Below are positions 26,888-37,219 of a stretch of 64,000 bases of DNA, one piece after another (within the stretch, counting starts at the first letter, position 1; every line of letters begins with the position of its first letter). The stretch lies in NCBI RefSeq assembly GCF_988242995.1, contig NZ_OZ547043.1, one strand, 5' to 3'. The notes beneath the pieces are model-generated. The model saw only the letters and a program-made list of their open reading frames with translations. It was not told the DNA's origin and ran no database searches. A program made the translations under genes and the position numbers.

Positions 26888-27463
26888 ATGCCCCTCTTAC
26901 ACCTGCTCCGCCAGAATCCGGTGATTGCTGCCGTTAAAGATAATGCCAGCCTGCAACTGGCAATCGACTCTGAATGCCAGTTTATTTCCGTGTTGTACGG
27001 CAATATCTGCACCATTAGTCAAATCGTTAAAAAGATTAAAAATGCCGGAAAATATGCTTTTATTCATGTTGATTTGCTGGAAGGCGCGTCAAATAAAGAA
27101 GTGGTGATTCAGTTTTTGAAACTGGTGACTGAGGCGGACGGCATTATCAGTACCAAAGCCTCAATGTTGAAAGCGGCAAGAGCGGAAGGTTTTTTCTGTA
27201 TTCATCGCCTGTTTATTGTTGATTCAATTTCGTTTCACAACATTGATAAGCAAGTTGCGCAATCGAATCCGGATTGTATTGAGATCCTGCCAGGCTGTAT
27301 GCCTAAAGTGCTGGGCTGGGTGACGGAGAAAATCCGCCAACCGCTGATTGCCGGCGGGCTGGTGTGCGATGAAGAAGATGCGCGTAATGCGATTAACGCA
27401 GGTGTCGTGGCGCTTTCCACCACAAATACCGGGGTCTGGACGCTAGCGAAAAAATTGCTTTGA
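26888..27463 (+). CDS. ygcP: GlpP-family putative transcription antiterminator
   Basis: ORF track 191 aa, recognised as the GlpP-like (glycerol-3-phosphate responsive antiterminator family) protein YgcP. Confidence 0.85.
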   Translation: MPLLHLLRQNPVIAAVKDNASLQLAIDSECQFISVLYGNICTISQIVKKIKNAGKYAFIHVDLLEGASNKEVVIQFLKLVTEADGIISTKASMLKAARAEGFFCIHRLFIVDSISFHNIDKQVAQSNPDCIEILPGCMPKVLGWVTEKIRQPLIAGGLVCDEEDARNAINAGVVALSTTNTGVWTLAKKLL

Positions 27464-27609: not shown

Positions 27610-28470
27610 TTATTGGCAATCTGCGTGAATGGTTGTCACCAGTGCCTCCAGCACCGCTTTCCAGTCATCAACCACGCCAACATCTGCCTGTGAAAATACC
27701 GCTGCACTGGCGTCATGATTAATCGCCACCACAAACTTGCTATTGCGTACGCCCGCCATTAACGCTGCTGCGCCGGAAGCGCCAACGACAATACACACCT
27801 CAGGTGCCAGCAGATGTCCAGAAATACCAATCACTTTTTCGGCATCAACGCCACCATTCATCACTCGTGCCCGACTGTAGCCCACTTCGGCTCCCAGCTT
27901 TTCTGCCAGCATAGCGATTTCCTGGTTATCTGCCTCTCCGCCCTGCCCCACCACCAGCACCCGTCTGGCCTCAGCTAATGGGTCACGGGTAACATTTTTC
28001 AGATCCTCTGTGCTAACCAGCCAGTCGGGAAGCGCGCCGGGGACAATGTTCAGTTGCTGCATACCAGAGGGCAATGTGGCGTTTTTCACTGCTCCCGCCT
28101 GGCGGGCAAGGGAAAGGCATAGCGGGCGTTTTTCTGTTTGCAGCGTCGCCGTTAGCGCATTTCCCCAGTGGGATTTGCGCACGCTTACGGTTGAAATATC
28201 TAACGAAGTCACCTGGCAGATGCTTGCACCATGTAAACGCCAGGCCAGCCGGGTCGACAGTTCATCACCAAACGTTCCCGGCGGAAAGAGAACAACGTCC
28301 GCTGGCGTTCGCTGCCACTGTTCCACCAGCGCATCCAGCACCTGTTCCGCCACTACGGGCTGAGGTTCAATCTGCCAGTGTGCCAGGGTACAACCGCTGA
28401 AATCCTGTTCTGCCAGCCAGCTCGCTATTGCGGCATTCTCCTGATTTATTGTCACAATTGCGATATTCAT
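27610..28470 (-). CDS. ygcQ: Electron transfer flavoprotein alpha-subunit-like protein (FixB family)
   Basis: ORF track 27610..28503; start set at MNIAIVTINQ (286 aa) to give the usual 4 nt overlap with ygcR. Confidence 0.85.
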   Translation of the reverse strand: MNIAIVTINQENAAIASWLAEQDFSGCTLAHWQIEPQPVVAEQVLDALVEQWQRTPADVVLFPPGTFGDELSTRLAWRLHGASICQVTSLDISTVSVRKSHWGNALTATLQTEKRPLCLSLARQAGAVKNATLPSGMQQLNIVPGALPDWLVSTEDLKNVTRDPLAEARRVLVVGQGGEADNQEIAMLAEKLGAEVGYSRARVMNGGVDAEKVIGISGHLLAPEVCIVVGASGAAALMAGVRNSKFVVAINHDASAAVFSQADVGVVDDWKAVLEALVTTIHADCQ

Positions 28471-29246
28471 GGCTGCATCCTTTGGCGTAAATAGTCCTGC
28501 CATAGCTTTTGCGCTTTTTCTGCTACCGTTTGCCCATCAATCAGCGTCGCTCCGCGTTGTTGCTCTGCTCTTGCCAGTTGCAGACACTGCATCGCTGGCG
28601 ATTCGGCAGCAACAGTTTTACGGATAATTGCTGCTTTCCCCGCCGCCATTCGCTGACGCATTCCCGGTACTGGCAAGGCCACTTCACCGCACTGACGCAC
28701 GGCAATCACCGCAGGCAAGCGAACCCGGCAACAGCGCAGCCCGTTTTCAGTACGCTGTTCGAGGGTGATAAACAGCGCGTCGAGAGTGAAACGCTCCACC
28801 TGGGTGAAGCAGGGCCAGCCCAGCATTTCCGCCAGCAAAAATGGCGTTTGCCCATTCTGCCCTTCGCTGCTTTGGCAGCCGGTAATTATCAGATCCAGCG
28901 GATTCTGACGCTGCCATTCGGCAATATGGCGAGCGACAAATTCCGGCGCAAAGCGCAGATCTGCCGCCGTCTCCAGTAATACAGCTTCCTCAAACCCAAG
29001 AGCCATGAGATAGCGCAGCCAGTGCAACGCCCGTTCATCCCCCATGCTCAACGCGGTTAAAGACATCGACGTACCGTTTTTTCTCTGCGTCAACAGCAGC
29101 GCGGCGGCAGCCTGTTCATCAGCACCGAGTAAACTTCGCAGAAGCGAAACATCCGGTCCGCTATTACCCTGAGCCGCCGCCTGCCACTCTTTTTCCGCCA
29201 GCATTCCGGCATCCGGTTCGGCTTTAAACGCTAACAGAATGTTCAT
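28467..29246 (-). CDS. ygcR: Electron transfer flavoprotein beta-subunit-like protein (FixA family)
   Basis: ORF track 28467..29252 (261 aa); start at first or third Met. Confidence 0.85.
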   Translation of the reverse strand: MNILLAFKAEPDAGMLAEKEWQAAAQGNSGPDVSLLRSLLGADEQAAAALLLTQRKNGTSMSLTALSMGDERALHWLRYLMALGFEEAVLLETAADLRFAPEFVARHIAEWQRQNPLDLIITGCQSSEGQNGQTPFLLAEMLGWPCFTQVERFTLDALFITLEQRTENGLRCCRVRLPAVIAVRQCGEVALPVPGMRQRMAAGKAAIIRKTVAAESPAMQCLQLARAEQQRGATLIDGQTVAEKAQKLWQDYLRQRMQP

Positions 29247-30561
29247 TCGCACCTCCTACATTTCCCGCCGCCACCAGCGGGAGTGCTTTGGTTTCTGGTG
29301 CCCATAGCCAGGTCACGACAAAACCAACCAACAACACTGCCGCCAGGAGCAATAAGGTGACTTGCATTCCCCACTGCGCCAGCACCCACGGCAGCAGGCC
29401 AGTACTTACCGCCGCCCCCAACCGACTCATGGCGGTGGCAAAACCGACGCCCAGCGAGCGAATGTCAGTAGGAAAACTTTCCGCAGGCAAAATGCCCACC
29501 AGATTACTGACTGCCGAAATGGTGGTGCTGAAGAGAACAAAAAGCAGCAGCGTTAATGAACTGCCGGAAGGCAAACAGGCCATCACTACCAGCGTTGCCG
29601 CCAGCAGCAAAAAACTTCCCAGCAAAAATTTGCGATGTGCCAGCAGGTGCGTCAGAACTAATCCCAGCAGCGCGCCAACAATTAACAACGCATTAAGCAT
29701 CAGGCTGGCGGTCAGCGCATCTTCCAGACCAATAGTTTGGGCAATGGTAGGCAGCCAGGTATAAATCACAAACCATGGGATTACGAGGCAGACAAAGAAG
29801 ACGCTGTTAAACGCCGTGCGCCGCCAGTAGCGCGAAGAGAACAAGGTTTTGATGTGTTTATGGGTCGCCGTTGCCACTTCATCGCCCAGTAAAACATGGG
29901 GACCAAAATAGCGATGCACGATAGCGTGAGCTTCTGCAAAACGCCCCTGGCGCAGTAGCCAGCGTGGCGATTCTGGCGTTCCCCAGCGTAATAACGTAAT
30001 CAACAACGCGGGCAGAGCTGCCGATGCCAGCAGCCAGCGCCAGGCCTCCGGGCTTTCGCTAATAAAGTGATGTCCGGCAATACTTGCCAGCACATAGCCT
30101 ACGGTCCACACCACACTGAATGCGCCCAGCAAAATACCGCGATGGCGGCGCGGGGAAAATTCAGCCAGCAAGGTGTGACCGACTGAGTAATCGCCTCCCA
30201 GACCAATGCCGATCAAAATGCGTAGTCCAATAAGATGCTCTGGCGTGGTGGCAAAAAATTGCAAGAACGAAGCGAGCGTAATCAGCAAAAAGCTGAAGGT
30301 GAAGATTTTTTGCCGACCAATATAGTCGGAGATCCACCCCAAAACCAGGCTACCGATAAACAGGCCAAGTAGCGCCGAGCCGCCAATCATTCCCGCCATA
30401 AACGGCGTCAGTTGCATGGCGGGCGTAAGCTGAATAATGGCGTAACCAATGACGCCGAGAACATAACCGTCGGTCAGGTGCGCGCCGAAAGTGAGCGCAG
30501 CAATTCGACAGTGAAAACGGTTAAGCGGTAAATCATCCATTCGCACCGGTGAAGTGTTCAT
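29224..30561 (-). CDS. ygcS: MFS transporter (sugar-porter type)
   Basis: ORF track 29224..30633; start set at MNTSPVRMDDLPLNRFH (445 aa); multiple TM helices. Confidence 0.85.
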   Translation of the reverse strand: MNTSPVRMDDLPLNRFHCRIAALTFGAHLTDGYVLGVIGYAIIQLTPAMQLTPFMAGMIGGSALLGLFIGSLVLGWISDYIGRQKIFTFSFLLITLASFLQFFATTPEHLIGLRILIGIGLGGDYSVGHTLLAEFSPRRHRGILLGAFSVVWTVGYVLASIAGHHFISESPEAWRWLLASAALPALLITLLRWGTPESPRWLLRQGRFAEAHAIVHRYFGPHVLLGDEVATATHKHIKTLFSSRYWRRTAFNSVFFVCLVIPWFVIYTWLPTIAQTIGLEDALTASLMLNALLIVGALLGLVLTHLLAHRKFLLGSFLLLAATLVVMACLPSGSSLTLLLFVLFSTTISAVSNLVGILPAESFPTDIRSLGVGFATAMSRLGAAVSTGLLPWVLAQWGMQVTLLLLAAVLLVGFVVTWLWAPETKALPLVAAGNVGGANEHSVSV

Positions 30562-30591
30562 CTTTACCCCTTCATTGTCCGGTAATAAGAA

Positions 30592-30613
30592 CGGCTTCTC
30601 GCCTGAGAAGCCG
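30592..30613 (-). terminator. Intrinsic-terminator-like hairpin between ygcU stop and ygcS start
   Basis: Perfect 9 bp stem CGGCTTCTC / GAGAAGCCG with 4 nt loop; on the minus-strand RNA it is followed by UUCUUAUU. Confidence 0.5.
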
Positions 30614-30654
30614 AAAAGGCAACGCTCCGTCATCGCGGAACGCTGCCTGACACA

Positions 30655-32109
30655 TTATTTTTCAATCGGATAGATAGTACCCGTATTCATAATGCCGTTA
30701 GGATCGAACTGCTTTTTCAGCCCTTCCAGCAACGCCCACGCGCTGCCGTGTTCCAGCTTGCTCCAGTGAACGCGATGTTTACCAATGCCGTGGTGGTGCA
30801 CCATCGAACCACCGAGGCGAATGGTTTCTTCGCAGATGATTTTGTTGAGCGGATTGTGGTACTTGTCGATTTCCTCTTCCGGCTTACAGTCAACGACGTT
30901 GTAGTCGTAGACGAAGTACATGTTGGTGCCGTTCTGGTAGCTATGAGAGGAGTGACCGCCCAGCATGGTGATGTCGTCGGCGTGCGGGAACTCGGTACGA
31001 ATACGGTTAATAACGCTTTCGTAGATTTCGTGGATGCAGCTCCAGCAGCCGGACACTTCGGTGGTAAAGCCCATGTTGCCGGTTTTGAGGATCTGCACAC
31101 GTTCAGCGGCCACTTTATCCGGCCCCCAGTTCAGGTGATTAAACCAGGTTTCGATCAGCTTGCTGTCCACTCGCTGGCATTGCGGGTAACGTGCCACGAT
31201 TTCCGCAATCCCTTCGCCTGTCGCCTTCGCAATGCGAGGGTTGCCTTCAGCCATAAAGATCAGCACACATTTACCATCGGCAAAATGGGTGAAGTGTTGG
31301 GTGCCATCTTCAGCGTCATACAAACGAGCGATCGACGGACGATACCCTTCCACCATGATTTCACGCAGGATGTTGAAGCCGGTTTTCATGTCTTCCAGGA
31401 TATAGCCGTAGAAGAGGTTGTTTTCCGGGGTGAACTTAAAGATTTTCACAGTTACTTCAGTGATATAGCACAATGCACCTTCGTTGCCGATGATGATGTG
31501 ACGAATGTCCGGGCCTGCCGCGCGGCGTGGTACGTTTTTAATGCGTGTTACGGTGCCATCAGCCAATACTGCTTCCAGACCAACGACCATATCTTCGATT
31601 GCGCCGTAGAGTGTGGAGAACTGCCCGATACTGCGGGTTGCTACCAGGCCGCCCATCTGCGCCAGCGGCTTTGACTGCGGAGAATGCCCCGTGGTGTAAC
31701 CTTTTTCACGCAACGCGTTTTCCAGCACTTCCAGCAGAACTCCGCATTGCGCCGTGGCCTGCATATTCTCAATATCAATATTAATGATTTGATTCATGGC
31801 AGAGCCGTCGAGCACCACCGAGTTTTCCACAACGGTTTCCAGCCCACCTTCGGTAGCGGAAGCACCGGTACGCGGCACACCGTTAATTTTGTGCGCATTC
31901 ATAAAATTCAGCACACGGGATACTTGTTCTGTGGAACCGAGTTTTACGACCGCTGCCGGAATCGGCAAAGTATAAATGCCATGAATATCCGGAAATTTGC
32001 GAAAACGGTCAATACTGTTCTTCTTTAATACTGTTTCATCGGTAATTACGCGATCTGCACCAACAATTTCCTTTAGCTGGTCGACAATCGCTGCGCGAGA
32101 TAAAGACAT
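30655..32109 (-). CDS. ygcU: FAD-linked oxidoreductase (alkyl-DHAP-synthase / D-lactate dehydrogenase-like)
   Basis: ORF track 484 aa with FAD-binding PCMH-type N-terminal half. Confidence 0.88.
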   Translation of the reverse strand: MSLSRAAIVDQLKEIVGADRVITDETVLKKNSIDRFRKFPDIHGIYTLPIPAAVVKLGSTEQVSRVLNFMNAHKINGVPRTGASATEGGLETVVENSVVLDGSAMNQIINIDIENMQATAQCGVLLEVLENALREKGYTTGHSPQSKPLAQMGGLVATRSIGQFSTLYGAIEDMVVGLEAVLADGTVTRIKNVPRRAAGPDIRHIIIGNEGALCYITEVTVKIFKFTPENNLFYGYILEDMKTGFNILREIMVEGYRPSIARLYDAEDGTQHFTHFADGKCVLIFMAEGNPRIAKATGEGIAEIVARYPQCQRVDSKLIETWFNHLNWGPDKVAAERVQILKTGNMGFTTEVSGCWSCIHEIYESVINRIRTEFPHADDITMLGGHSSHSYQNGTNMYFVYDYNVVDCKPEEEIDKYHNPLNKIICEETIRLGGSMVHHHGIGKHRVHWSKLEHGSAWALLEGLKKQFDPNGIMNTGTIYPIEK

Positions 32110-32178
32110 AGTAATTCCTTCCTGATAATAAAAATGGAATAATCATTAATAAGAGAAAACAGAAACCACCGTTATGGA

Positions 32179-32964
32179 TTAGCGCACTAAATAACCGCCA
32201 TCAACCACTAATAAATGTCCGTTGACATAATTCGATGCCGGACTTGCGAGGAATACGGCTGCGCCCATTAAATCCTGAGTATCGCCCCAACGGTTTGCCG
32301 GAATATGATCAAGAACGCGCTGGTTAGTTTCTGGATTACTACGGGTCGCCAGAGTGATATCGGTAGCGTAATATCCCGGAGCAATACCATTTACCTGAAT
32401 ATTATATTGACCTAGTTCATCACAATAAGCTTTGGTGAACCCGGCAAGAGCATGTTTAGTGGCAGAATATGCAGGTGACCATTGTCCACCTAAGTAAGAG
32501 AATAATGAACAGATATTAATGATTTTACCGCTTTTCTGCGGGATCATAATTTTTGCAGCTTCATAGCTTAACTCGAATGCGGCGGTCAGGTTCACATCAA
32601 TCATCGGGTCCCAGTCGGCACGACCGAAGTCCAGCACCTTATTCAGCTTACAAATACCGGCATTGTTAATCAGAATATCGACGGTACCGAAACGTTCGCA
32701 ACAGGCGGCGATTATCTTCTGCGGCGCGCCTTCTGCGGTGATATCCACCTGCATGAAGTCCACCTCAACACCCTGTTTTTCAATCATTTCCTTTGTTTCG
32801 CCGTTATCTTTAACGAAGCTTGGAATAAAGATATTTGCGCCTGCTTTGGCCAGCGCCATGGCAAATGCCTGGCCTAAACCGCTATTCCCGCCGGTAACAA
32901 TTGCGGTTTTACCTTTCAGGGAGAAAAAATCCATTGAGAACGCATTGAGAGATTCGATTGACAT
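32179..32964 (-). CDS. ygcW: Short-chain dehydrogenase/reductase
   Basis: ORF track 32179..33039; start set at MSIESLNAFSMDFFSLKGKTAIVTGGNSGLG (261 aa). The longer ORF would translate straight through an obvious terminator hairpin and A9 tract. Confidence 0.88.
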   Translation of the reverse strand: MSIESLNAFSMDFFSLKGKTAIVTGGNSGLGQAFAMALAKAGANIFIPSFVKDNGETKEMIEKQGVEVDFMQVDITAEGAPQKIIAACCERFGTVDILINNAGICKLNKVLDFGRADWDPMIDVNLTAAFELSYEAAKIMIPQKSGKIINICSLFSYLGGQWSPAYSATKHALAGFTKAYCDELGQYNIQVNGIAPGYYATDITLATRSNPETNQRVLDHIPANRWGDTQDLMGAAVFLASPASNYVNGHLLVVDGGYLVR

Positions 32965-32988
32965 AGTTAGCTCCAATTTCCGTAAGGC

Positions 32989-33036
32989 AAAAAAAAAGAA
33001 AGGTAACTTCCCCCGCGAGAGGGAAGTTACCTTTCT
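32989..33036 (-). terminator. Strong intrinsic-terminator-like hairpin plus U8 in the ygcW 5' leader
   Basis: Perfect 16 bp stem (32997-33012 pairs with 33021-33036), 8 nt loop CCGCGAGA, then on the minus-strand RNA eight U (plus A-run 32989-32996); ends 24 nt upstream of ygcW ATG. Confidence 0.7.
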
Positions 33037-33088
33037 CATTATCTCTGGTAACTGGAGATAATTTTTATCATAAGGGCATAATCGCTAA

Positions 33089-33104
33089 TGTGATCGTAAT
33101 CACA
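33089..33104. promoter_or_regulatory. Candidate CRP binding site in ygcW/yqcE divergent region
   Basis: TGTGATCGTAATCACA, a perfect TGTGA-N6-TCACA palindrome. Confidence 0.6.
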
Positions 33105-33210
33105 GTGTGATATTCGAATTGTCAAATAATTTTAAAAAGCAGAAGCGTGATTACTCTCACACAACACCACTACTTTCCATGTTATTTCTTATTGCAATTA
33201 CTAGAGACCT

Positions 33211-33258
33211 GAGAAAAGTAATCCACCTGAAAGGGCGGCTTACTTTTCTCTTTTTTTT
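33211..33258 (+). terminator. Intrinsic-terminator-like hairpin plus T8 in the yqcE 5' leader
   Basis: Perfect 11 bp stem GAGAAAAGTAA / TTACTTTTCTC with 18 nt loop, followed by TTTTTTTT (33251-33258); ends 24 nt upstream of yqcE ATG (33283). Confidence 0.65.
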
Positions 33259-33282
33259 GTCTATTACAAATGGGAATACGAT

Positions 33283-34560
33283 ATGCAACACAACTCATAT
33301 CGCCGTTGGATAACCCTCGCGATAATTAGTTTTAGCGGCGGCGTTAGTTTCGACCTGGCTTATTTACGTTATATTTATCAAATTCCCATGGCGAAATTTA
33401 TGGGATTCAGCAATACCGAGATAGGTTTAATAATGAGTACCTTTGGTATTGCGGCTATTATTCTTTATGCCCCCAGCGGCGTTATTGCCGATAAATTTTC
33501 ACACCGCAAAATGATTACTTCCGCGATGATCATTACCGGATTACTGGGTCTGTTAATGGCAACATATCCACCGCTGTGGGTAATGCTCTGTATTCAGGTC
33601 GCCTTTGCGATAACGACGATTTTAATGCTGTGGTCGGTGTCGATTAAAGCCGCCTCGTTGCTGGGCGATCATAGCGAGCAAGGGAAAATTATGGGCTGGA
33701 TGGAAGGGCTGCGCGGCGTCGGTGTAATGTCGCTGGCGGTGTTTACCATGTGGGTCTTTTCTCGCTTTGCACCGGATGACAGCGCCAGCCTGAAAACGGT
33801 CATTATTATCTATAGTGTGGTTTACATTCTGCTGGGCATTTTGTGTTGGTTTTTTGTTAGCAATAACAACAACCTGCGCAATACCAATAACGAAGAAAAA
33901 CAGTCATTCCAGCTTAGCGACATCCTGGCCGTTTTGCGCATCAGCACCACCTGGTATTGCAGCATGGTGATTTTTGGTGTCTTCACCATCTACGCCATTC
34001 TGAGTTACTCCACCAACTATCTGACCGAAATGTACGGCATGTCGCTGGTGGCGGCGAGCTACATGGGGATTGTGATCAACAAAATCTTCCGCGCACTGTG
34101 CGGACCACTTGGTGGCATTATCACCACCTACAGCAAAGTGAAATCCCCTACCCGCGTGATCCAAATCCTTTCCGTACTCGGCTTACTGGCGTTAACTGCC
34201 CTGCTCGTCACGAACTCTAACCCGCAATCGGTCGCGATGGGGATTGGCCTGATTTTACTGCTGGGATTCACCTGTTACGCCTCACGCGGGCTGTACTGGG
34301 CCTGCCCTGGCGAAGCGAGAACACCGTCTTACATTATGGGCACCACGGTAGGTATTTGTTCGGTGATTGGATTCCTGCCGGATGTCTTCGTTTACCCGAT
34401 TATCGGCTACTGGCAAGACACCCTGCCCGCTGCAGAAGCCTACCGCAATATGTGGCTGATGGGCATGGCGGCGCTTGCCATGGTGATCGTCTTTACCTTT
34501 TTGCTGTTCCAAAAAATTCGTACTGCTGATAGCGCCCCTGCTATGGCTAGCAGCAAGTAA
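33283..34560 (+). CDS. yqcE: MFS transporter
   Basis: ORF track 425 aa, 12-TM-like hydrophobic profile. Confidence 0.88.
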   Translation: MQHNSYRRWITLAIISFSGGVSFDLAYLRYIYQIPMAKFMGFSNTEIGLIMSTFGIAAIILYAPSGVIADKFSHRKMITSAMIITGLLGLLMATYPPLWVMLCIQVAFAITTILMLWSVSIKAASLLGDHSEQGKIMGWMEGLRGVGVMSLAVFTMWVFSRFAPDDSASLKTVIIIYSVVYILLGILCWFFVSNNNNLRNTNNEEKQSFQLSDILAVLRISTTWYCSMVIFGVFTIYAILSYSTNYLTEMYGMSLVAASYMGIVINKIFRALCGPLGGIITTYSKVKSPTRVIQILSVLGLLALTALLVTNSNPQSVAMGIGLILLLGFTCYASRGLYWACPGEARTPSYIMGTTVGICSVIGFLPDVFVYPIIGYWQDTLPAAEAYRNMWLMGMAALAMVIVFTFLLFQKIRTADSAPAMASSK

Positions 34561-34586
34561 GTCCAGAAAATTACAGGAGAAAAATC

Positions 34587-36065
34587 ATGTCGAAAAAATA
34601 CATCATAGGGATTGATGGTGGAAGTCAGAGCACAAAAGTGGTGATGTACGATCTGGAAGGTAATGTGGTTTGCGAAGGCAAAGGCTTATTGCAGCCGATG
34701 CACACGCCAGATGCCGATACCGCAGAACATCCTGACGACGATTTATGGGCATCATTATGCTTTGCCGGTCACGATTTGATGAGTCAGTTTGCCGGAAATA
34801 AAGAAGATATTGTCGGTATTGGTCTGGGATCCATCCGTTGCTGCCGTGCGTTATTGAAAGCCGATGGCACGCCAGCTGCGCCGTTGATTAGCTGGCAGGA
34901 TGCACGCGTTACACGCCCTTACGAACATACGAATCCTGACGTGGCATATGTCACCTCTTTTTCAGGTTATCTGACGCATCGCTTAACCGGCGAGTTTAAA
35001 GACAATATCGCCAACTATTTTGGTCAGTGGCCGGTGGATTATAAGACCTGGGCATGGAGTGAAGATGCCGCAGTCATGGAGAAGTTTAATATCCCCCGTC
35101 ATATGCTGTTTGATGTGCAAATGCCGGGCACTGTTCTTGGGCATATCACTCCTCAAGCCGCGCTGGCGACACATTTCCCGGCTGGGCTGCCGGTTGTTTG
35201 TACCACCAGTGATAAACCGGTTGAAGCACTGGGAGCTGGGTTACTGGATGATGAAACGGCGGTAATTTCTCTTGGCACTTACATCGCGCTGATGATGAAC
35301 GGCAAAGCACTGCCGAAAGATCCGCTGGCGTACTGGCCGATTATGTCTTCTATTCCGCAAACATTGCTGTATGAAGGTTACGGTATCCGCAAAGGCATGT
35401 GGACGGTGAGCTGGCTACGCGACATGCTAGGCGAGTCGTTAATTCAGGATGCCAAAGCACAGGATCTTTCACCGGAAGATTTACTCAACAAAAAAGCGTC
35501 TTGTGTGCCGCCAGGCTGTAATGGTCTGATGACGGTGCTGGACTGGCTGACCAATCCGTGGGAACCGTACAAACGCGGGATTATGATCGGCTTTGATTCC
35601 AGCATGGATTACGCATGGATATATCGTTCGATACTGGAAAGCGTGGCGCTGACGCTGAAGAACAATTTCGACAATATGTGTAATGAAATGAATCACTTTG
35701 CAAAGCATGTGATCATTACTGGCGGCGGTTCGAACAGCGATCTGTTTATGCAGATTTTTGCCGACGTGTTCAACCTTCCGGCACGCCGTAACGCCATTAA
35801 TGGTTGTGCAAGCCTGGGGGCAGCGATTAATACGGCGGTAGGTCTGGGGCTATACCCGGATTACGCAACGGCTGTCGACAAAATGGTTCGCGTGAAAGAT
35901 ATCTTTATGCCTGTTGAGAACAATGCCAAACGCTACGACGCGATGAATAAAGGCATTTTCAAGGAGTTAACCAAACATACTGATGTAATCCTGAAAAAAT
36001 CGTATGAAGTGATGCATGGGGAATTGGGGAATGCGGATTCGATCCAGAGCTGGTCGAATGCGTAA
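34587..36065 (+). CDS. ygcE: FGGY-family carbohydrate kinase
   Basis: ORF track 492 aa, N-terminal IGIDGGSQSTKVV (FGGY kinase signature). Confidence 0.88.
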   Translation: MSKKYIIGIDGGSQSTKVVMYDLEGNVVCEGKGLLQPMHTPDADTAEHPDDDLWASLCFAGHDLMSQFAGNKEDIVGIGLGSIRCCRALLKADGTPAAPLISWQDARVTRPYEHTNPDVAYVTSFSGYLTHRLTGEFKDNIANYFGQWPVDYKTWAWSEDAAVMEKFNIPRHMLFDVQMPGTVLGHITPQAALATHFPAGLPVVCTTSDKPVEALGAGLLDDETAVISLGTYIALMMNGKALPKDPLAYWPIMSSIPQTLLYEGYGIRKGMWTVSWLRDMLGESLIQDAKAQDLSPEDLLNKKASCVPPGCNGLMTVLDWLTNPWEPYKRGIMIGFDSSMDYAWIYRSILESVALTLKNNFDNMCNEMNHFAKHVIITGGGSNSDLFMQIFADVFNLPARRNAINGCASLGAAINTAVGLGLYPDYATAVDKMVRVKDIFMPVENNAKRYDAMNKGIFKELTKHTDVILKKSYEVMHGELGNADSIQSWSNA

Positions 36066-36249: not shown

Positions 36250-36702
36250 TAACTACACTCGATGTATTTAGAATAAAAGACAATACGAATCGCACTTTAT
36301 CAATTTTCACTTAAAGTATGAACTGGATATCTTTATTCATAAGAACTATTCATCAACAGCGTATAGAGGCGATTATGTAAAACCACTCATTAGCCTCAAA
36401 ACAAAGACAAATTTCCAGATTTATTACTTAATCAATGAATAACAAGCTTAAAAAATACACTGTTATTCTAAAGAAAAAATTAACAGGCATTAATTAATAT
36501 TAAAAAAATAATATGTTAAAATTTCTTAACGGTTTAAGGATTATACAAATAACACTTTGATTAAATTTTATTTTTTGTATCGATAATTGTGAACTTGTCA
36601 TATATGGAGAGCTATTTTGAACATGAGGTGTTACGTGGATATGTTGCTTAATACGAGTACTGCTAATATAAAAACTTGAGAAAGAGATAACGGGTTATAT
36701 GG

Positions 36703-37219
36703 TGGTTTATTCCCGCTGGTGCGGGGAACTCATCAGTGATATCCAACATTGCGGAGCTAAACGCGGTTTATCCCCGCTGGCGCGGGGAACTCAATTAGCC
36801 CGCCTCGCGCGGGTTTTTTTGTGCCGGTTTATCCCCGCTGGCGCGGGGAACTCTTTACTTATCTGCAAATATTTTTTGTCAGCTGCGGTTTATCCCCGCT
36901 GGCGCGGGGAACTCACGAACGCGGCACACCAGGGCGTCTCATCGTCCGGTTTATCCCCGCTGGCGCGGGGAACTCGAACACGACAGGAGTGATAAATGTA
37001 CGCACATCGGTTTATCCCCGCTGGCGCGGGGAACTCGGCTGATAGTGCTTCTGATTATTCGGCGCAAGCGGTTTATCCCCGCTGGCGCGGGGAACTCTAG
37101 GACCCAATATAAAACCGACTGGTTATTTTCGGTTTATCCCCGCTGGCGCGGGGAACTCTTTCAGTCTGGAACACAACGGCGTTAAATAACCGGTTTATCC
37201 CCGCTGGCGCGGGGAACTC
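36703..37219 (-). CRISPR. Orphan CRISPR array, type I-E repeats, 9 repeats and 8 spacers
   Basis: Repeat CGGTTTATCCCCGCTGGCGCGGGGAACTC, period 61 bp, starts 36703 (degenerate distal repeat, 3 mismatches), 36764 ... 37191; 32 bp spacers; leader on the right; no adjacent cas genes. Confidence 0.97.

What the first reader, a model, noticed from the sequence alone, without database searches (positions are those of the whole stretch)
32989..33258. Mirror-image leader terminators on both sides of a CRP palindrome in the ygcW/yqcE divergent region
Both divergent genes have an unusually strong rho-independent-terminator-like structure immediately before the start codon, each ending 24 nt upstream of the ATG. 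For ygcW (minus strand) it is a perfect 16 bp stem, 8 nt loop and U8; for yqcE (plus strand) a perfect 11 bp stem, 18 nt loop and T8. There is no room for a promoter between hairpin and ATG, so any transcript must read through the terminator. The two 3' arms plus U-tracts resemble each other (ygcW RNA ...AAGUUACCUUUCU-U8, yqcE ...GGCUUACUUUUCUC-U8). A 7 nt segment AGUUACC upstream in the ygcW leader is complementary to the 5' arm of its terminator, a possible weak antiterminator. A perfect CRP palindrome (33089-33104) lies between them, positioned roughly like a class II site for a minus-strand promoter near 33062-33072. The same cluster encodes YgcP, a GlpP-family protein (the Bacillus glpD leader antiterminator family). 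Inference: a conditional termination/antitermination switch controls both divergent units, possibly via YgcP. I know of no description of this, but I cannot search to confirm that.
Basis: partly seen in the sequence, partly recalled or inferred. Interest (0 to 1): 0.75.

Follow-up and report, generated by a model that had tools for sequence, protein, structure and literature searches.

The report
GlpP-type antitermination leaders of ygcW and yqcE
Two divergent E. coli operons of unknown function each begin with a real transcription stop signal, preceded by a conserved RNA element matching the one that the Bacillus antiterminator protein GlpP acts on, so the neighbouring GlpP homologue YgcP most likely switches both operons on.

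Summary

The terminators work in vivo. Published RNA-seq lists short RNAs ecr2774 (73 nt) and ecr2775 (63 nt, northern-positive) at these positions. Published Term-seq finds Rho-independent 3' ends in both leaders.

In YgcP-homologue loci from Enterobacterales, Vibrio, Listeria, Bacillus, Clostridia and Sporomusa, the cluster's operons carry the same leader wherever the contig reaches them. It reads H1, (A/U)GAGA, N3-4, GAG(A)AA, H1', a variable apical stem, an invariant lower stem, then a U-tract.

H1 pairs with the terminator's 5' arm, forming an antiterminator, and covaries across lineages. The B. subtilis glpD leader, the experimentally defined GlpP target, has the same layout.

Each E. 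coli leader starts about 2 nt after a conserved class II CRP site plus an extended -10; there are two CRP sites, not one.

Best explanation: CRP-activated promoters whose transcripts terminate unless ligand-bound YgcP (full-length PF04309) holds the antiterminator. YgcP binding and its ligand are untested.

Novelty: a new member of a known kind. The RNA motif is absent from Rfam, and I found no paper linking YgcP to these leaders.

The parts
33089..33104 (.). CRP site 1, TGTGATCGTAATCACA, centre 33096.5. It serves the ygcW promoter at class II distance.
   Evidence: Sequence. The GTGA..TCACA halves are invariant in 17 taxa. CRP binds it in vitro with an estimated Kd of 1.7 nM (PMC12871828) and in vivo by ChIP-seq in ETEC (PMC4287617).
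33062..33070 (-). Extended -10 of the ygcW promoter (TGaTAAAAA on the minus strand). The predicted transcription start is about 33055.
   Evidence: Conserved block in the intergenic alignment, starting 29.5 bp from the centre of CRP site 1. The published 5' end of ecr2774 maps to about 33057 (the coordinate offset is confirmed).
33047..33053 (-). H1, the 5' strand of the ygcW antiterminator helix (AGUUACC).
   Evidence: Pairs with 33031..33025. It is conserved and covaries. The nascent-RNA minimum-energy fold is this hairpin, at -6.7 kcal/mol.
33032..33046 (-). Antiterminator loop AGAGA-UAAU-GAGAAA, holding the two GAG(A) boxes. This is the proposed YgcP recognition site.
   Evidence: The GAG cores are invariant columns in 92 distinct leaders. 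The same boxes occur in the Listeria, Bacillus, Vibrio, Clostridium and Sporomusa leaders and in B. subtilis glpD.
33025..33031 (-). H1' (GGUAACU). It belongs to the terminator's 5' arm and pairs alternatively with H1.
32996..33037 (-). ygcW leader intrinsic terminator hairpin.
   Evidence: Term-seq places a 3' end at window 33002 with intrinsic-terminator score 15.8 and no Rho dependence.
32989..32997 (-). U9 tract of the ygcW leader terminator.
   Evidence: Sequence. The T run is conserved in all leaders.
33146..33161 (.). CRP-like site 2, CGTGATTACTCTCACA, centre 33153.5. It serves the yqcE promoter at class II distance.
   Evidence: The GTGA..TCAC halves are invariant in 17 taxa. yqcE-ygcE is listed as Crp-activated (PMC8085971). 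I found no direct binding data for this site.
33180..33188 (+). Extended -10 of the yqcE promoter (TGtTATTTC). The predicted transcription start is 33195/33196.
   Evidence: Conserved block whose -10 hexamer (33183) starts 29.5 bp from the centre of site 2. The 5' end of ecr2775 maps to about 33196. This intergenic strand is transcribed in vitro (PMC3141248).
33197..33202 (+). H1 of the yqcE antiterminator (AUUACU).
   Evidence: Pairs with AGUAAU at 33217-33222. The A-U closing pair covaries with G-C in other leaders, and that U is unpaired in the terminator.
33203..33216 (+). Antiterminator loop AGAGA-CCU-GAGAAA, holding the GAG(A) boxes.
33217..33222 (+). H1' (AGUAAU), within the terminator's 5' arm.
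33211..33251 (+). yqcE leader intrinsic terminator hairpin.
   Evidence: Term-seq places a 3' end at window 33247 with intrinsic score 11.4 and no Rho dependence. ecr2775 is northern-positive.
33251..33258 (+). U8 tract of the yqcE leader terminator.
   Evidence: Sequence; conserved.
26888..27463 (+). ygcP, the proposed trans-acting RNA-binding antiterminator.
   Evidence: Full-length PF04309 G3P_antiterm match, E = 1.6e-62. PDB relatives are 3kts and 1vkf. It is always clustered with the leader-bearing operons.
27610..32964 (-). Genes downstream of the ygcW leader: ygcW (SDR), ygcU (FAD oxidase), ygcS (MFS transporter), ygcR/ygcQ (ETF beta/alpha).
   Evidence: No further leader motif or long gap lies between them. 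That they form one operon is inferred.
33283..36065 (+). Genes downstream of the yqcE leader: yqcE (MFS transporter) and ygcE (FGGY sugar kinase).

Best explanation
The ygcW-yqcE intergenic region holds two inverted copies of one regulatory module. Each copy consists of a class II CRP site, an extended -10 promoter and a GlpP-type leader.

How it works:
1. When cAMP-CRP is present, RNA polymerase starts about 2 nt before H1.
2. The first ~30 nt of RNA fold into a weak antiterminator hairpin: H1 (AGUUACC or AUUACU) paired with H1', with a 14-15-nt loop that carries two GAG(A) boxes.
3. If nothing holds this hairpin, the 3' arm displaces H1. The much stronger terminator forms (-31 and -21 kcal/mol) and transcription stops at the U-tract. 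This releases the 63-73-nt RNAs seen in vivo.
4. When YgcP has bound its inducer, it binds the GAG-box hairpin and keeps H1' away from the terminator's 3' arm. Polymerase then reads through into ygcW-ygcU-ygcS-ygcR-ygcQ and yqcE-ygcE.

By analogy with GlpP and glycerol-3-phosphate, the inducer is presumably a phosphorylated product of the cluster kinase YgcE.

What is shown: the structures, the in vivo 5' and 3' ends, CRP binding at site 1, conservation and covariation of both helices, the family membership of YgcP, and the same leader layout at the experimentally defined GlpP target.

What is inferred: YgcP binding, the identity of the ligand, and the operon extents.
For: - Structure: both hairpins fold far better than shuffled sequence.
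- In vivo RNA ends: ecr2774 maps to window ~32984-33057 and ecr2775 to ~33196-33259; the latter is northern-positive (PMC4681348).
- In vivo termination: Term-seq finds 3' ends in both 5' UTRs with intrinsic-terminator scores 15.8 and 11.4 and no Rho dependence (PMC7815308).
- Gene cluster: 65 loci found through YgcP keep the core genes ygcP, ygcU, ygcW, yqcE and ygcE from Enterobacterales to Listeria and Bacillus.
- Motif placement: there are exactly two leader motifs per locus, always directly upstream of ygcW and yqcE. That is 85 hits in 915 kb and none elsewhere.
- Wider range: the same motif occurs in Vibrio, Clostridium sediminicola and Sporomusa and, in divergent form, in Listeria, Bacillus, Lachnoclostridium and Faecalibacterium.
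- Terminator helix: 98.2% of cells paired, against 60-67% when the partner is slid.
- Antiterminator helix: 84.5-94.9% paired, against 15-54% when slid. There are 49 cells with a change on both sides, and 0 of 500 shuffles reach the observed value.
- Covariation of H1/H1': eight different sequences across lineages all stay complementary (and my reading).
- Folding order: the nascent RNA's minimum-energy fold is the antiterminator; the full-length RNA's is the terminator.
- Known GlpP target: the B. subtilis glpD 5' UTR reads GGUC-cUGAGAuGAGGAGA-GACC, then a long terminator stem and U-tract, which is the same layout (sequence from PMC9604022 Table S4). In two Clostridia the motif precedes a G3P-oxidase-like gene next to glpP.
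- The regulator: YgcP is a full-length PF04309 protein.
- Promoters: two invariant CRP sites and extended -10 elements sit at class II spacing. CRP binding is reported.
Against: - No experiment links YgcP to these RNAs, and the ligand is unknown.
- The loci were collected through YgcP, so co-occurrence of motif and protein holds by construction in one direction. I did not run a motif-first search of whole genomes.
- Within Enterobacterales the covariation rests on few independent events. The cross-phylum cases were partly read by eye.
- The Term-seq 3' ends (window 33002 and 33247) lie inside the 3' arms, 13 and 11 nt before the end of the U-tracts. I explain this only by assumed 3' trimming.
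- Only one canonical GlpP target sequence (glpD) was available for comparison.
- ygcP sits in the separate ygcNOP unit, which has no such leader.
Confidence: 0.75

Rival explanations
1. The two short RNAs are stand-alone small RNAs, or constitutive unregulated attenuators or insulators. The hairpins are simply their terminators. Expression of ygcW and yqcE depends on basal read-through or on some factor other than YgcP.
For: Romero et al. listed them as candidate sRNAs and detected ecr2775 by northern blot. The Term-seq signal at the ygcW leader is strong in LB (40,640 reads), which shows abundant terminated product. No read-through condition is known.
Against: Only 24 nt, including the ribosome-binding site, separate each U-tract from the ATG, and the mapped 5' ends lie upstream, so the mRNAs must read through. 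H1 and the GAG boxes are conserved and covary with the terminator's 5' arm, which a plain terminator does not need. The layout matches a proven protein-controlled leader.
Confidence: 0.12
2. The conserved 5' element is a small riboswitch that binds a metabolite directly, and YgcP has another role.
For: The element is a conserved leader with mutually exclusive antiterminator and terminator helices, and it has invariant loop nucleotides.
Against: The element is only a 4-9-bp helix with a 12-18-nt loop. Every instance found lies beside a PF04309 gene. In B. subtilis, antitermination at the equivalent leader needs GlpP: a glpP deletion strain cannot be induced (PMC9604022). No Rfam riboswitch family matches.
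Confidence: 0.05
3. The hairpins are REP-like or ERIC-like repetitive palindromes, or bidirectional terminators that insulate the divergent promoters, with no specific regulatory role.
For: [quoted passage not shown] The ygcW stem is a near-perfect palindrome.
Against: The element is single copy. blastn across 5,064 E. coli genomes finds only this locus, and the second 'place' per genome is the palindrome itself on the other strand. Each hairpin has a U-tract on one strand only. The positions are orthologous and conserved across orders.
Confidence: 0.03

Closest known systems
Bacillus subtilis GlpP and the glpD (also glpFK, glpTQ) leader conditional terminators
   Same: The regulator has the same protein family (PF04309). 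The leader has the same layout: a short helix H1/H1' enclosing GAG(A) repeats, with H1' as the start of a long intrinsic terminator, followed by a U-tract (glpD sequence; E. coli and others). The regulator gene lies beside a kinase, a flavin dehydrogenase and a transporter.
   Different: The host is Gram-negative. The promoters are class II CRP-dependent, not CcpA-controlled. Two divergent copies share one intergenic region. H1/H1' is 6-7 bp here against 4 bp in glpD. The lower terminator stem is an invariant GAGAAARGU/ACYUUUCUC. The controlled genes are not glp genes, so the ligand is probably not glycerol-3-phosphate. YgcP matches the Listeria GlpP-like PDB entry 3kts only distantly, at E = 8.5e-28.
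BglG/SacY/LicT RAT-terminator antitermination (E. coli bgl, B. subtilis sac/lic)
   Same: The logic is the same. A protein stabilises a weak antiterminator hairpin that overlaps the 5' arm of a leader terminator of a catabolic operon. This comparison rests on established knowledge and was not tested here.
   Different: The protein family differs (CAT-PRD domains, PTS-controlled). The RAT sequence and structure differ. No PRD protein is annotated in this cluster.
HutP and TRAP, which bind (N)AG-repeat RNA
   Same: They are oligomeric proteins that read spaced GAG/UAG triplets in a leader to decide between terminator and antiterminator. HutP is described in the abstract of PMC2425495; TRAP is from general knowledge. 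The GAG boxes here suggest a similar reading.
   Different: The protein folds are unrelated. TRAP promotes termination, while HutP acts by destabilising the terminator. Only two or three GAG boxes are present here, and they sit inside a hairpin loop.
Candidate sRNAs ecr2774 and ecr2775 (Romero et al. 2014) and the Term-seq 5'-UTR 3' ends (Adams et al. 2021)
   Same: They are the same molecules: window ~32984-33057 (minus strand) and ~33196-33259 (plus strand), with 3' ends at 33002 and 33247.
   Different: They were published as uncharacterised short RNAs or 3' ends. No regulatory element, antiterminator or link to YgcP was noted.

Membership tests
GlpP-type (PF04309) leader antitermination | A regulator with the G3P_antiterm domain is encoded with the controlled genes. 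| tested here: met
   YgcP matches PF04309 over 173/173 model positions, E = 1.6e-62. It is clustered with the leader-bearing operons in all loci examined.
GlpP-type (PF04309) leader antitermination | An intrinsic terminator lies in the 5' leader, between the promoter and the start codon, and terminates in vivo. | tested here: met
   Folding and scans. Published short RNAs and Rho-independent Term-seq 3' ends.
GlpP-type (PF04309) leader antitermination | The leader resembles the experimentally defined GlpP target, the glpD leader. | tested here: met
   glpD reads GGUC-cUGAGAuGAGGAGA-GACC, then terminator and U-tract. E. coli ygcW reads AGUUACC-AGAGAuaauGAGAAA-GGUAACU, then terminator and U-tract. 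The comparison was made by eye on one canonical sequence. Two Clostridia carry the motif before G3P-oxidase-like genes.
GlpP-type (PF04309) leader antitermination | The protein binds the leader RNA and raises read-through in response to a small-molecule ligand. | not testable with these tools
   This needs EMSA or in vitro transcription with purified YgcP and candidate ligands.
Terminator/antiterminator attenuator (generic) | There are two mutually exclusive helices that share a strand, and both are evolutionarily maintained. | tested here: met
   Antiterminator 84.5-94.9% paired with changes on both sides. Terminator 98.2% paired. Alternative folds of nascent and full-length RNA.
Curated Rfam cis-regulatory RNA families | A match to an Rfam covariance model at or near the gathering score. 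| tested here: not met
   The best hits are unrelated families far below threshold. For the E. coli region, rliE scores 26 bits against a gathering score of 90. For the Listeria leader, L20_leader scores 17 bits against 58.7.
REP/ERIC-type repetitive extragenic palindromes | Many dispersed copies per genome. | tested here: not met
   One locus per E. coli genome. The second blast place is the palindrome on the opposite strand.
Class II CRP-dependent promoter | A CRP site is centred near -41.5, overlapping the -35 region, and CRP binds it. | tested here: met
   The site centres are 33096.5 and 33153.5, the conserved extended -10 elements start 29.5 bp away, and the published 5' ends lie within 1-2 nt of the prediction. 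Binding is shown for site 1 only. Dependence of transcription on CRP was not tested here.
Trans-acting Hfq-type small RNA | A chaperone-bound RNA with mRNA targets elsewhere. | not tested
   No data were retrieved, and no paper found assigns targets.

The most novel reading that the evidence does not exclude
The hairpin H1-(A/U)GAGA-N3-4-GAG(A)AA-H1', fused to a terminator, is the family-wide RNA recognition element of PF04309 antiterminators and is not catalogued in Rfam. The YgcP subfamily uses it in Gammaproteobacteria, Bacilli, Clostridia and Negativicutes. It would respond to a phosphorylated intermediate other than glycerol-3-phosphate and switch on a widespread, uncharacterised catabolic pathway (FGGY kinase, GlcD-like flavoenzyme with its own ETF, SDR, MFS or BCCT transporter). 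This would make ygc the first GlpP-type antitermination regulon in E. coli and give a reporter for finding the pathway's substrate.
Probability: 0.5. Interest if true: 0.65.

Novelty: new member of a known kind. Interest (0 to 1): 0.55.

Why it matters
E. coli K-12 still carries the ygc/yqc cluster as genes of unknown function. This result gives the cluster a concrete, testable control circuit: CRP plus YgcP-dependent antitermination.

It also explains two orphan short RNAs (ecr2774, ecr2775) and two unexplained Term-seq 3' ends.

It defines, by comparison across phyla, the RNA element that GlpP-family proteins probably read. I found no description of it beyond a DBTBS-derived 'GlpP binding site' annotation for the B. 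subtilis glp promoters, whose extent I could not read, and it has no Rfam model.

Leader-reporter fusions would serve directly as a screen for the unknown inducer and substrate of the pathway. GlpP/terminator pairs are already used as portable expression switches in Bacillus (PMC9604022), so a Gram-negative counterpart could be useful too.

Tried and rejected
- Rfam at permissive E-values on the E. coli region and on a Listeria leader found nothing relevant.
- REP-like repeat: rejected, because the element is single copy.
- Coding explanation. An ORF can be extended from ygcW to an ATG at 33039, inside the hairpin. That ATG is not conserved (many leaders read GAAGAG or GACGAG there), the apical indels break the frame, and a GGAG ribosome-binding site precedes the annotated ATG. 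Rejected.
- Bidirectional terminator or insulator: rejected, because each stem has a U-tract on one strand only.
- The plus-strand hairpin at 33038-33062 is the complement of the ygcW leader's 5' end. The transcript starts inside it, and it is not conserved outside Escherichia, so I do not count it as part of the mechanism.
- The search for homologous proteins with YgcP returned only the close subfamily (54% identity or more) and did not reach B. subtilis GlpP. The canonical glpD leader therefore came from a paper's supplement, and glpFK and glpTQ could not be compared.
- The Footprint-seq preprint has no supplement held as text, so binding at CRP site 2 could not be checked.
- My automatic H1/H1' finder mis-parsed three divergent leaders (Bacillus ygcW, Lachnoclostridium, Faecalibacterium). 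I read those by eye.
- I did not use the metagenome scan. Short contigs cannot show that ygcP is absent, so the test would have been weak.
Full report
**Identity and coordinates.** The window is E. coli. A 901-bp query around the finding is 100% identical to strain ST2747 and is present in 5,073 of 5,426 complete E. coli genomes. Window coordinate = NC_000913.3 coordinate minus 2867309. The ygcW ATG is at 32964 on the minus strand and the yqcE ATG at 33283 on the plus strand, leaving a 318-bp intergenic region.

The surrounding genes are:
- ygcN, ygcO and ygcP on the plus strand;
- ygcQ, ygcR, ygcS, ygcU and ygcW on the minus strand;
- yqcE and ygcE on the plus strand.

**Observation check.**
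- The ygcW leader on the minus strand has a stem at 33037..32996. It has 16 perfect pairs, or 19 with G-U pairs and a 4-nt loop. Its energy is -31 kcal/mol, z = -7.4. A U9 run follows and ends 24 nt before the ATG.
- The yqcE leader has an 11-bp stem plus a structured apical part at 33211-33251. Its energy is about -20.6 kcal/mol, z = -3.5. A T8 run follows and ends 24 nt before the ATG.
- The region holds 8 terminator-like sites against 1.6 expected.
- The shared arm motifs occur exactly only at these two leaders in the 64-kb window (the 5'-arm motif also once on the opposite strand of the yqcE stem); the totals with near matches, 6 each, exceed every shuffle.

**The terminators act in vivo and were already seen.** Romero et al. 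2014 (PMC4681348, Table S5) list two 'potential novel sRNAs' between ygcW and yqcE.
- ecr2774 is on the ygcW strand at U00096.2 2898315-2898388 (73 nt).
- ecr2775 is on the yqcE strand at 2898527-2898590 (63 nt) and was detected by northern blot.
- The offset from U00096.2 to NC_000913.3 is +1978. A probe name in PMC3141248 places the end of the intergenic region at 2898613 and so confirms it.
- With that offset the RNAs map to window ~32984-33057 and ~33196-33259. Each runs from just before the conserved leader element to the U-tract.

Adams et al. 2021 (PMC7815308, supplementary file 3, LB OD 0.4) report Term-seq 3' ends in both leaders.
- One is at 2900311 (minus strand; window 33002), 38 nt upstream of ygcW, with 40,640 reads.
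- The other is at 2900556 (plus strand; window 33247), 36 nt upstream of yqcE, with 1,557 reads.
- Both are classed as not Rho-dependent (Rho scores 0.50 and 0.61).
- Both have high intrinsic-terminator scores, 15.8 and 11.4, against a threshold of 3.
- No regulatory element is noted for either.

**Comparative evidence.** A scan of one genome per species with YgcP returned 65 loci. tblastn shows a conserved core of ygcP, ygcU, ygcW, yqcE and ygcE. The ETF genes and ygcNO are often present too. The core is found across Enterobacterales and also in Listeria, Bacillus and Thalassobacillus, where YgcW is about 76% and YgcP about 56% identical.

In every enterobacterial locus that reaches the divergent region except L033 (one merged hairpin), there are exactly two copies of one motif, directly upstream of ygcW and of yqcE and nowhere else in the ~20-kb loci. 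A covariance model, R1, found 85 hits in 915 kb. That is two per locus, all in leader positions.

The alignment of 92 distinct leaders (A1) gives this consensus: (C)AGUUACY, AGAGA, N3-4, GAGAAARGUAAC, a variable G+C-rich apical stem-loop, YUURCYUUUCUC, then U7-9.
- The GAG cores, the lower stem and the U run are invariant.
- The apical stem varies, with compensatory changes.

**The antiterminator.** The upstream AGUUACY (H1) is complementary to RGUAACU (H1'), which lies in the terminator's 5' arm right after GAGAAA.
- In my own register-corrected count, 94.9% of cells pair, against 15-49% for shifted registers. Pair 1 shows C-G/U-A exchange and pair 6 shows G-C/A-U exchange.
- The A-U form of pair 6 occurs in the E. 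coli-type yqcE leaders. There that U is not paired in the terminator, so this covariation is specific to the antiterminator.
- The tool count on the uncorrected MAFFT alignment gives 84.5% paired against 16-54% when slid. There are 49 cells with a change on both sides, and 0 of 500 shuffles reach the observed value.
- Across more distant lineages H1/H1' takes other complementary forms:
  - AGUUGCU/AGCGACU in Listeria and Bacillus;
  - GAAAUUACU/AGUAAUUUC in Sporomusa;
  - GUUUC/GAAAC in Faecalibacterium;
  - UUGC/GCAA in Lachnoclostridium;
  - GGUC/GACC in B. subtilis glpD.
- The nascent RNA up to H1' folds into this hairpin as its minimum-energy structure (-6.7 kcal/mol for ygcW, -1.4 for yqcE). 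The full leader folds into the terminator (-31.2 and -20.7 kcal/mol).
- The antiterminator therefore cannot win unaided.

**Link to GlpP.** YgcP is a full-length PF04309 (G3P_antiterm) protein, E = 1.6e-62. Its PDB relatives are 3kts and 1vkf.

The B. subtilis glpD 5' UTR is printed in Table S4 of Han et al. 2022 (PMC9604022). It reads ...ACGGUCCUGAGAUGAGGAGAGACCACAGC...GUUGUGGUCUCUUUUUC. This breaks down as:
- H1 (GGUC);
- a loop with GAGA, GAG and GAGA;
- H1' (GACC), which opens a long terminator;
- a U-tract.

That paper reports that a glpP deletion strain cannot be induced and that the UTR alone confers glycerol control on foreign promoters.

In Lachnoclostridium and Faecalibacterium the motif lies between glpP and a type-2 G3P-oxidase/GlpA-like gene. 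In Vibrio hannami, Clostridium sediminicola and Sporomusa the ygc-type cluster carries two leaders each, at 44-67 bits.

The E. coli leaders are thus members of a leader type that travels with PF04309 proteins. Rfam has no model for it, and I found no paper connecting YgcP with these leaders.

**Promoters.** The intergenic alignment from 17 taxa (A2) shows two invariant CRP-type sites.
- Site 1 is at 33089-33104, centre 33096.5.
- Site 2 is CGTGATTACTCTCACA at 33146-33161, centre 33153.5.
- Each is followed at 29.5 bp by a conserved extended -10: TGaTAAAAA on the minus strand at 33070..33062, and TGtTATTTC on the plus strand at 33180-33188.
- This is class II geometry. It predicts transcription starts at 33055 and 33195, within 1-2 nt of the published 5' ends and 2 nt before H1.

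Site 1 binds CRP in vitro with an estimated Kd of 1.7 nM (PMC12871828) and in vivo by ChIP-seq (PMC4287617). PhyloScan had predicted it in 2007. yqcE-ygcE is listed as Crp-activated. I found no direct binding data for site 2.

**Mechanism, with status of each step.**
- CRP-dependent initiation: binding is shown for site 1; dependence of transcription on CRP is inferred.
- Default termination at the leader terminator: shown by RNA-seq and Term-seq.
- An alternative antiterminator hairpin: supported by covariation.
- Stabilisation of that hairpin by ligand-bound YgcP through the GAG boxes: inferred from family membership, synteny and the glpD precedent.
- The ligand is probably the product of the FGGY kinase YgcE, by analogy with GlpK, G3P and GlpP: inferred.

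The cluster proteins match GlcD-like FAD oxidase, ETF alpha and beta, FixC/FixX-like, KduD-like SDR, MFS and FGGY kinase families. All score below the curated cut-offs, so the substrate is unknown.

**Rivals.**
- Stand-alone sRNAs or unregulated attenuators do not explain the conserved, covarying H1 and GAG boxes.
- A riboswitch is unlikely. The element is very small, every instance found lies beside a PF04309 gene, and antitermination at the equivalent Bacillus leader needs the protein.
- REP-like repeats are excluded because the element is single copy.
- Bidirectional terminators are excluded because each stem has a U-tract on one strand only.

**Unexplained.** The Term-seq 3' ends lie inside the 3' arms, after ...GUUACC at 33002 and after ...UUACUUUU at 33247. 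These are 13 and 11 nt before the ends of the U-tracts. The RNA-seq coverage of Romero et al. extends to the U-tracts. Exonucleolytic trimming into the A/U-rich lower stem is my assumption. Early termination after the apical G+C-rich hairpin is the alternative.

**Verdict.** This is a new member of a known kind: GlpP-type protein-dependent antitermination, here in E. coli under CRP control. Its added value is that it defines a cross-phylum RNA motif. Confidence in the YgcP mechanism is 0.75, and interest is 0.55.

Noticed in passing
Its halves are invariant in 17 taxa, and it sits at class II distance from the yqcE leader start. I found no published binding data for it.
   Followed up: partly
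window 33002 (minus strand) and 33247 (plus strand): The published Term-seq 3' ends fall inside the 3' arms of the terminator stems, not in the U-tracts. This could be trimming or early termination, and it is unresolved.
   Followed up: partly
L011:16322-16469 and L013:12668-12815: In Citrobacter youngae and Klebsiella spallanzanii about 125 bp is inserted between the yqcE leader terminator and the start codon. From memory, the insert (…GAGCTTACTGTAGTAAGTGATTCGGGTGAGTGAACGCAGCCAACGCATCAGCAACTTGAAGTATGAAGGGTAT…) looks like an ERIC/IRU repeat. The leader motif itself is intact.
   Followed up: no
L033:13871-13966: In Limnobaculum eriocheiris the ygcW-yqcE spacer is only 130 bp. It holds a single palindromic hairpin flanked by A9 and T9 that matches the model on both strands. 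It has no H1, GAG-box 1, CRP sites or promoters. This may be a deletion or an assembly collapse between the two inverted leaders. The sister species (L035) has the normal two-leader spacer.
   Followed up: partly
L068:10715-12286, L069:1-386, L070:18120-20194: A BCCT-family transporter gene accompanies the ygc-type cluster in Vibrio, Clostridium sediminicola and Sporomusa. In Sporomusa it has its own copy of the leader motif. This may be a hint about the substrate class.
   Followed up: no
window 33038-33062 (plus strand): A terminator-like hairpin, ATTATCTCTGGTAACTGGAGATAAT followed by TTTTAT, lies on the plus strand. It overlaps the ygcW transcription start and H1. It is not conserved outside Escherichia and is probably incidental.
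   Followed up: partly
window 34587-36065; L001:16888-18366: ygcE is annotated as a pseudogene (internal stop) in strain ST2747, but it is an intact 492-aa ORF in the window. The window is therefore not that strain, despite 100% identity over the 901-bp query. About 350 of 5,426 complete E. coli genomes lack the region altogether.
   Followed up: no
window ~36700-36980, and upstream of 24600 (by offset from L001): The reference strain's annotation shows a CRISPR array just downstream of ygcE, and a cas3 gene and a Hok/Gef toxin gene upstream of cysH. These are unrelated to the finding.
   Followed up: no
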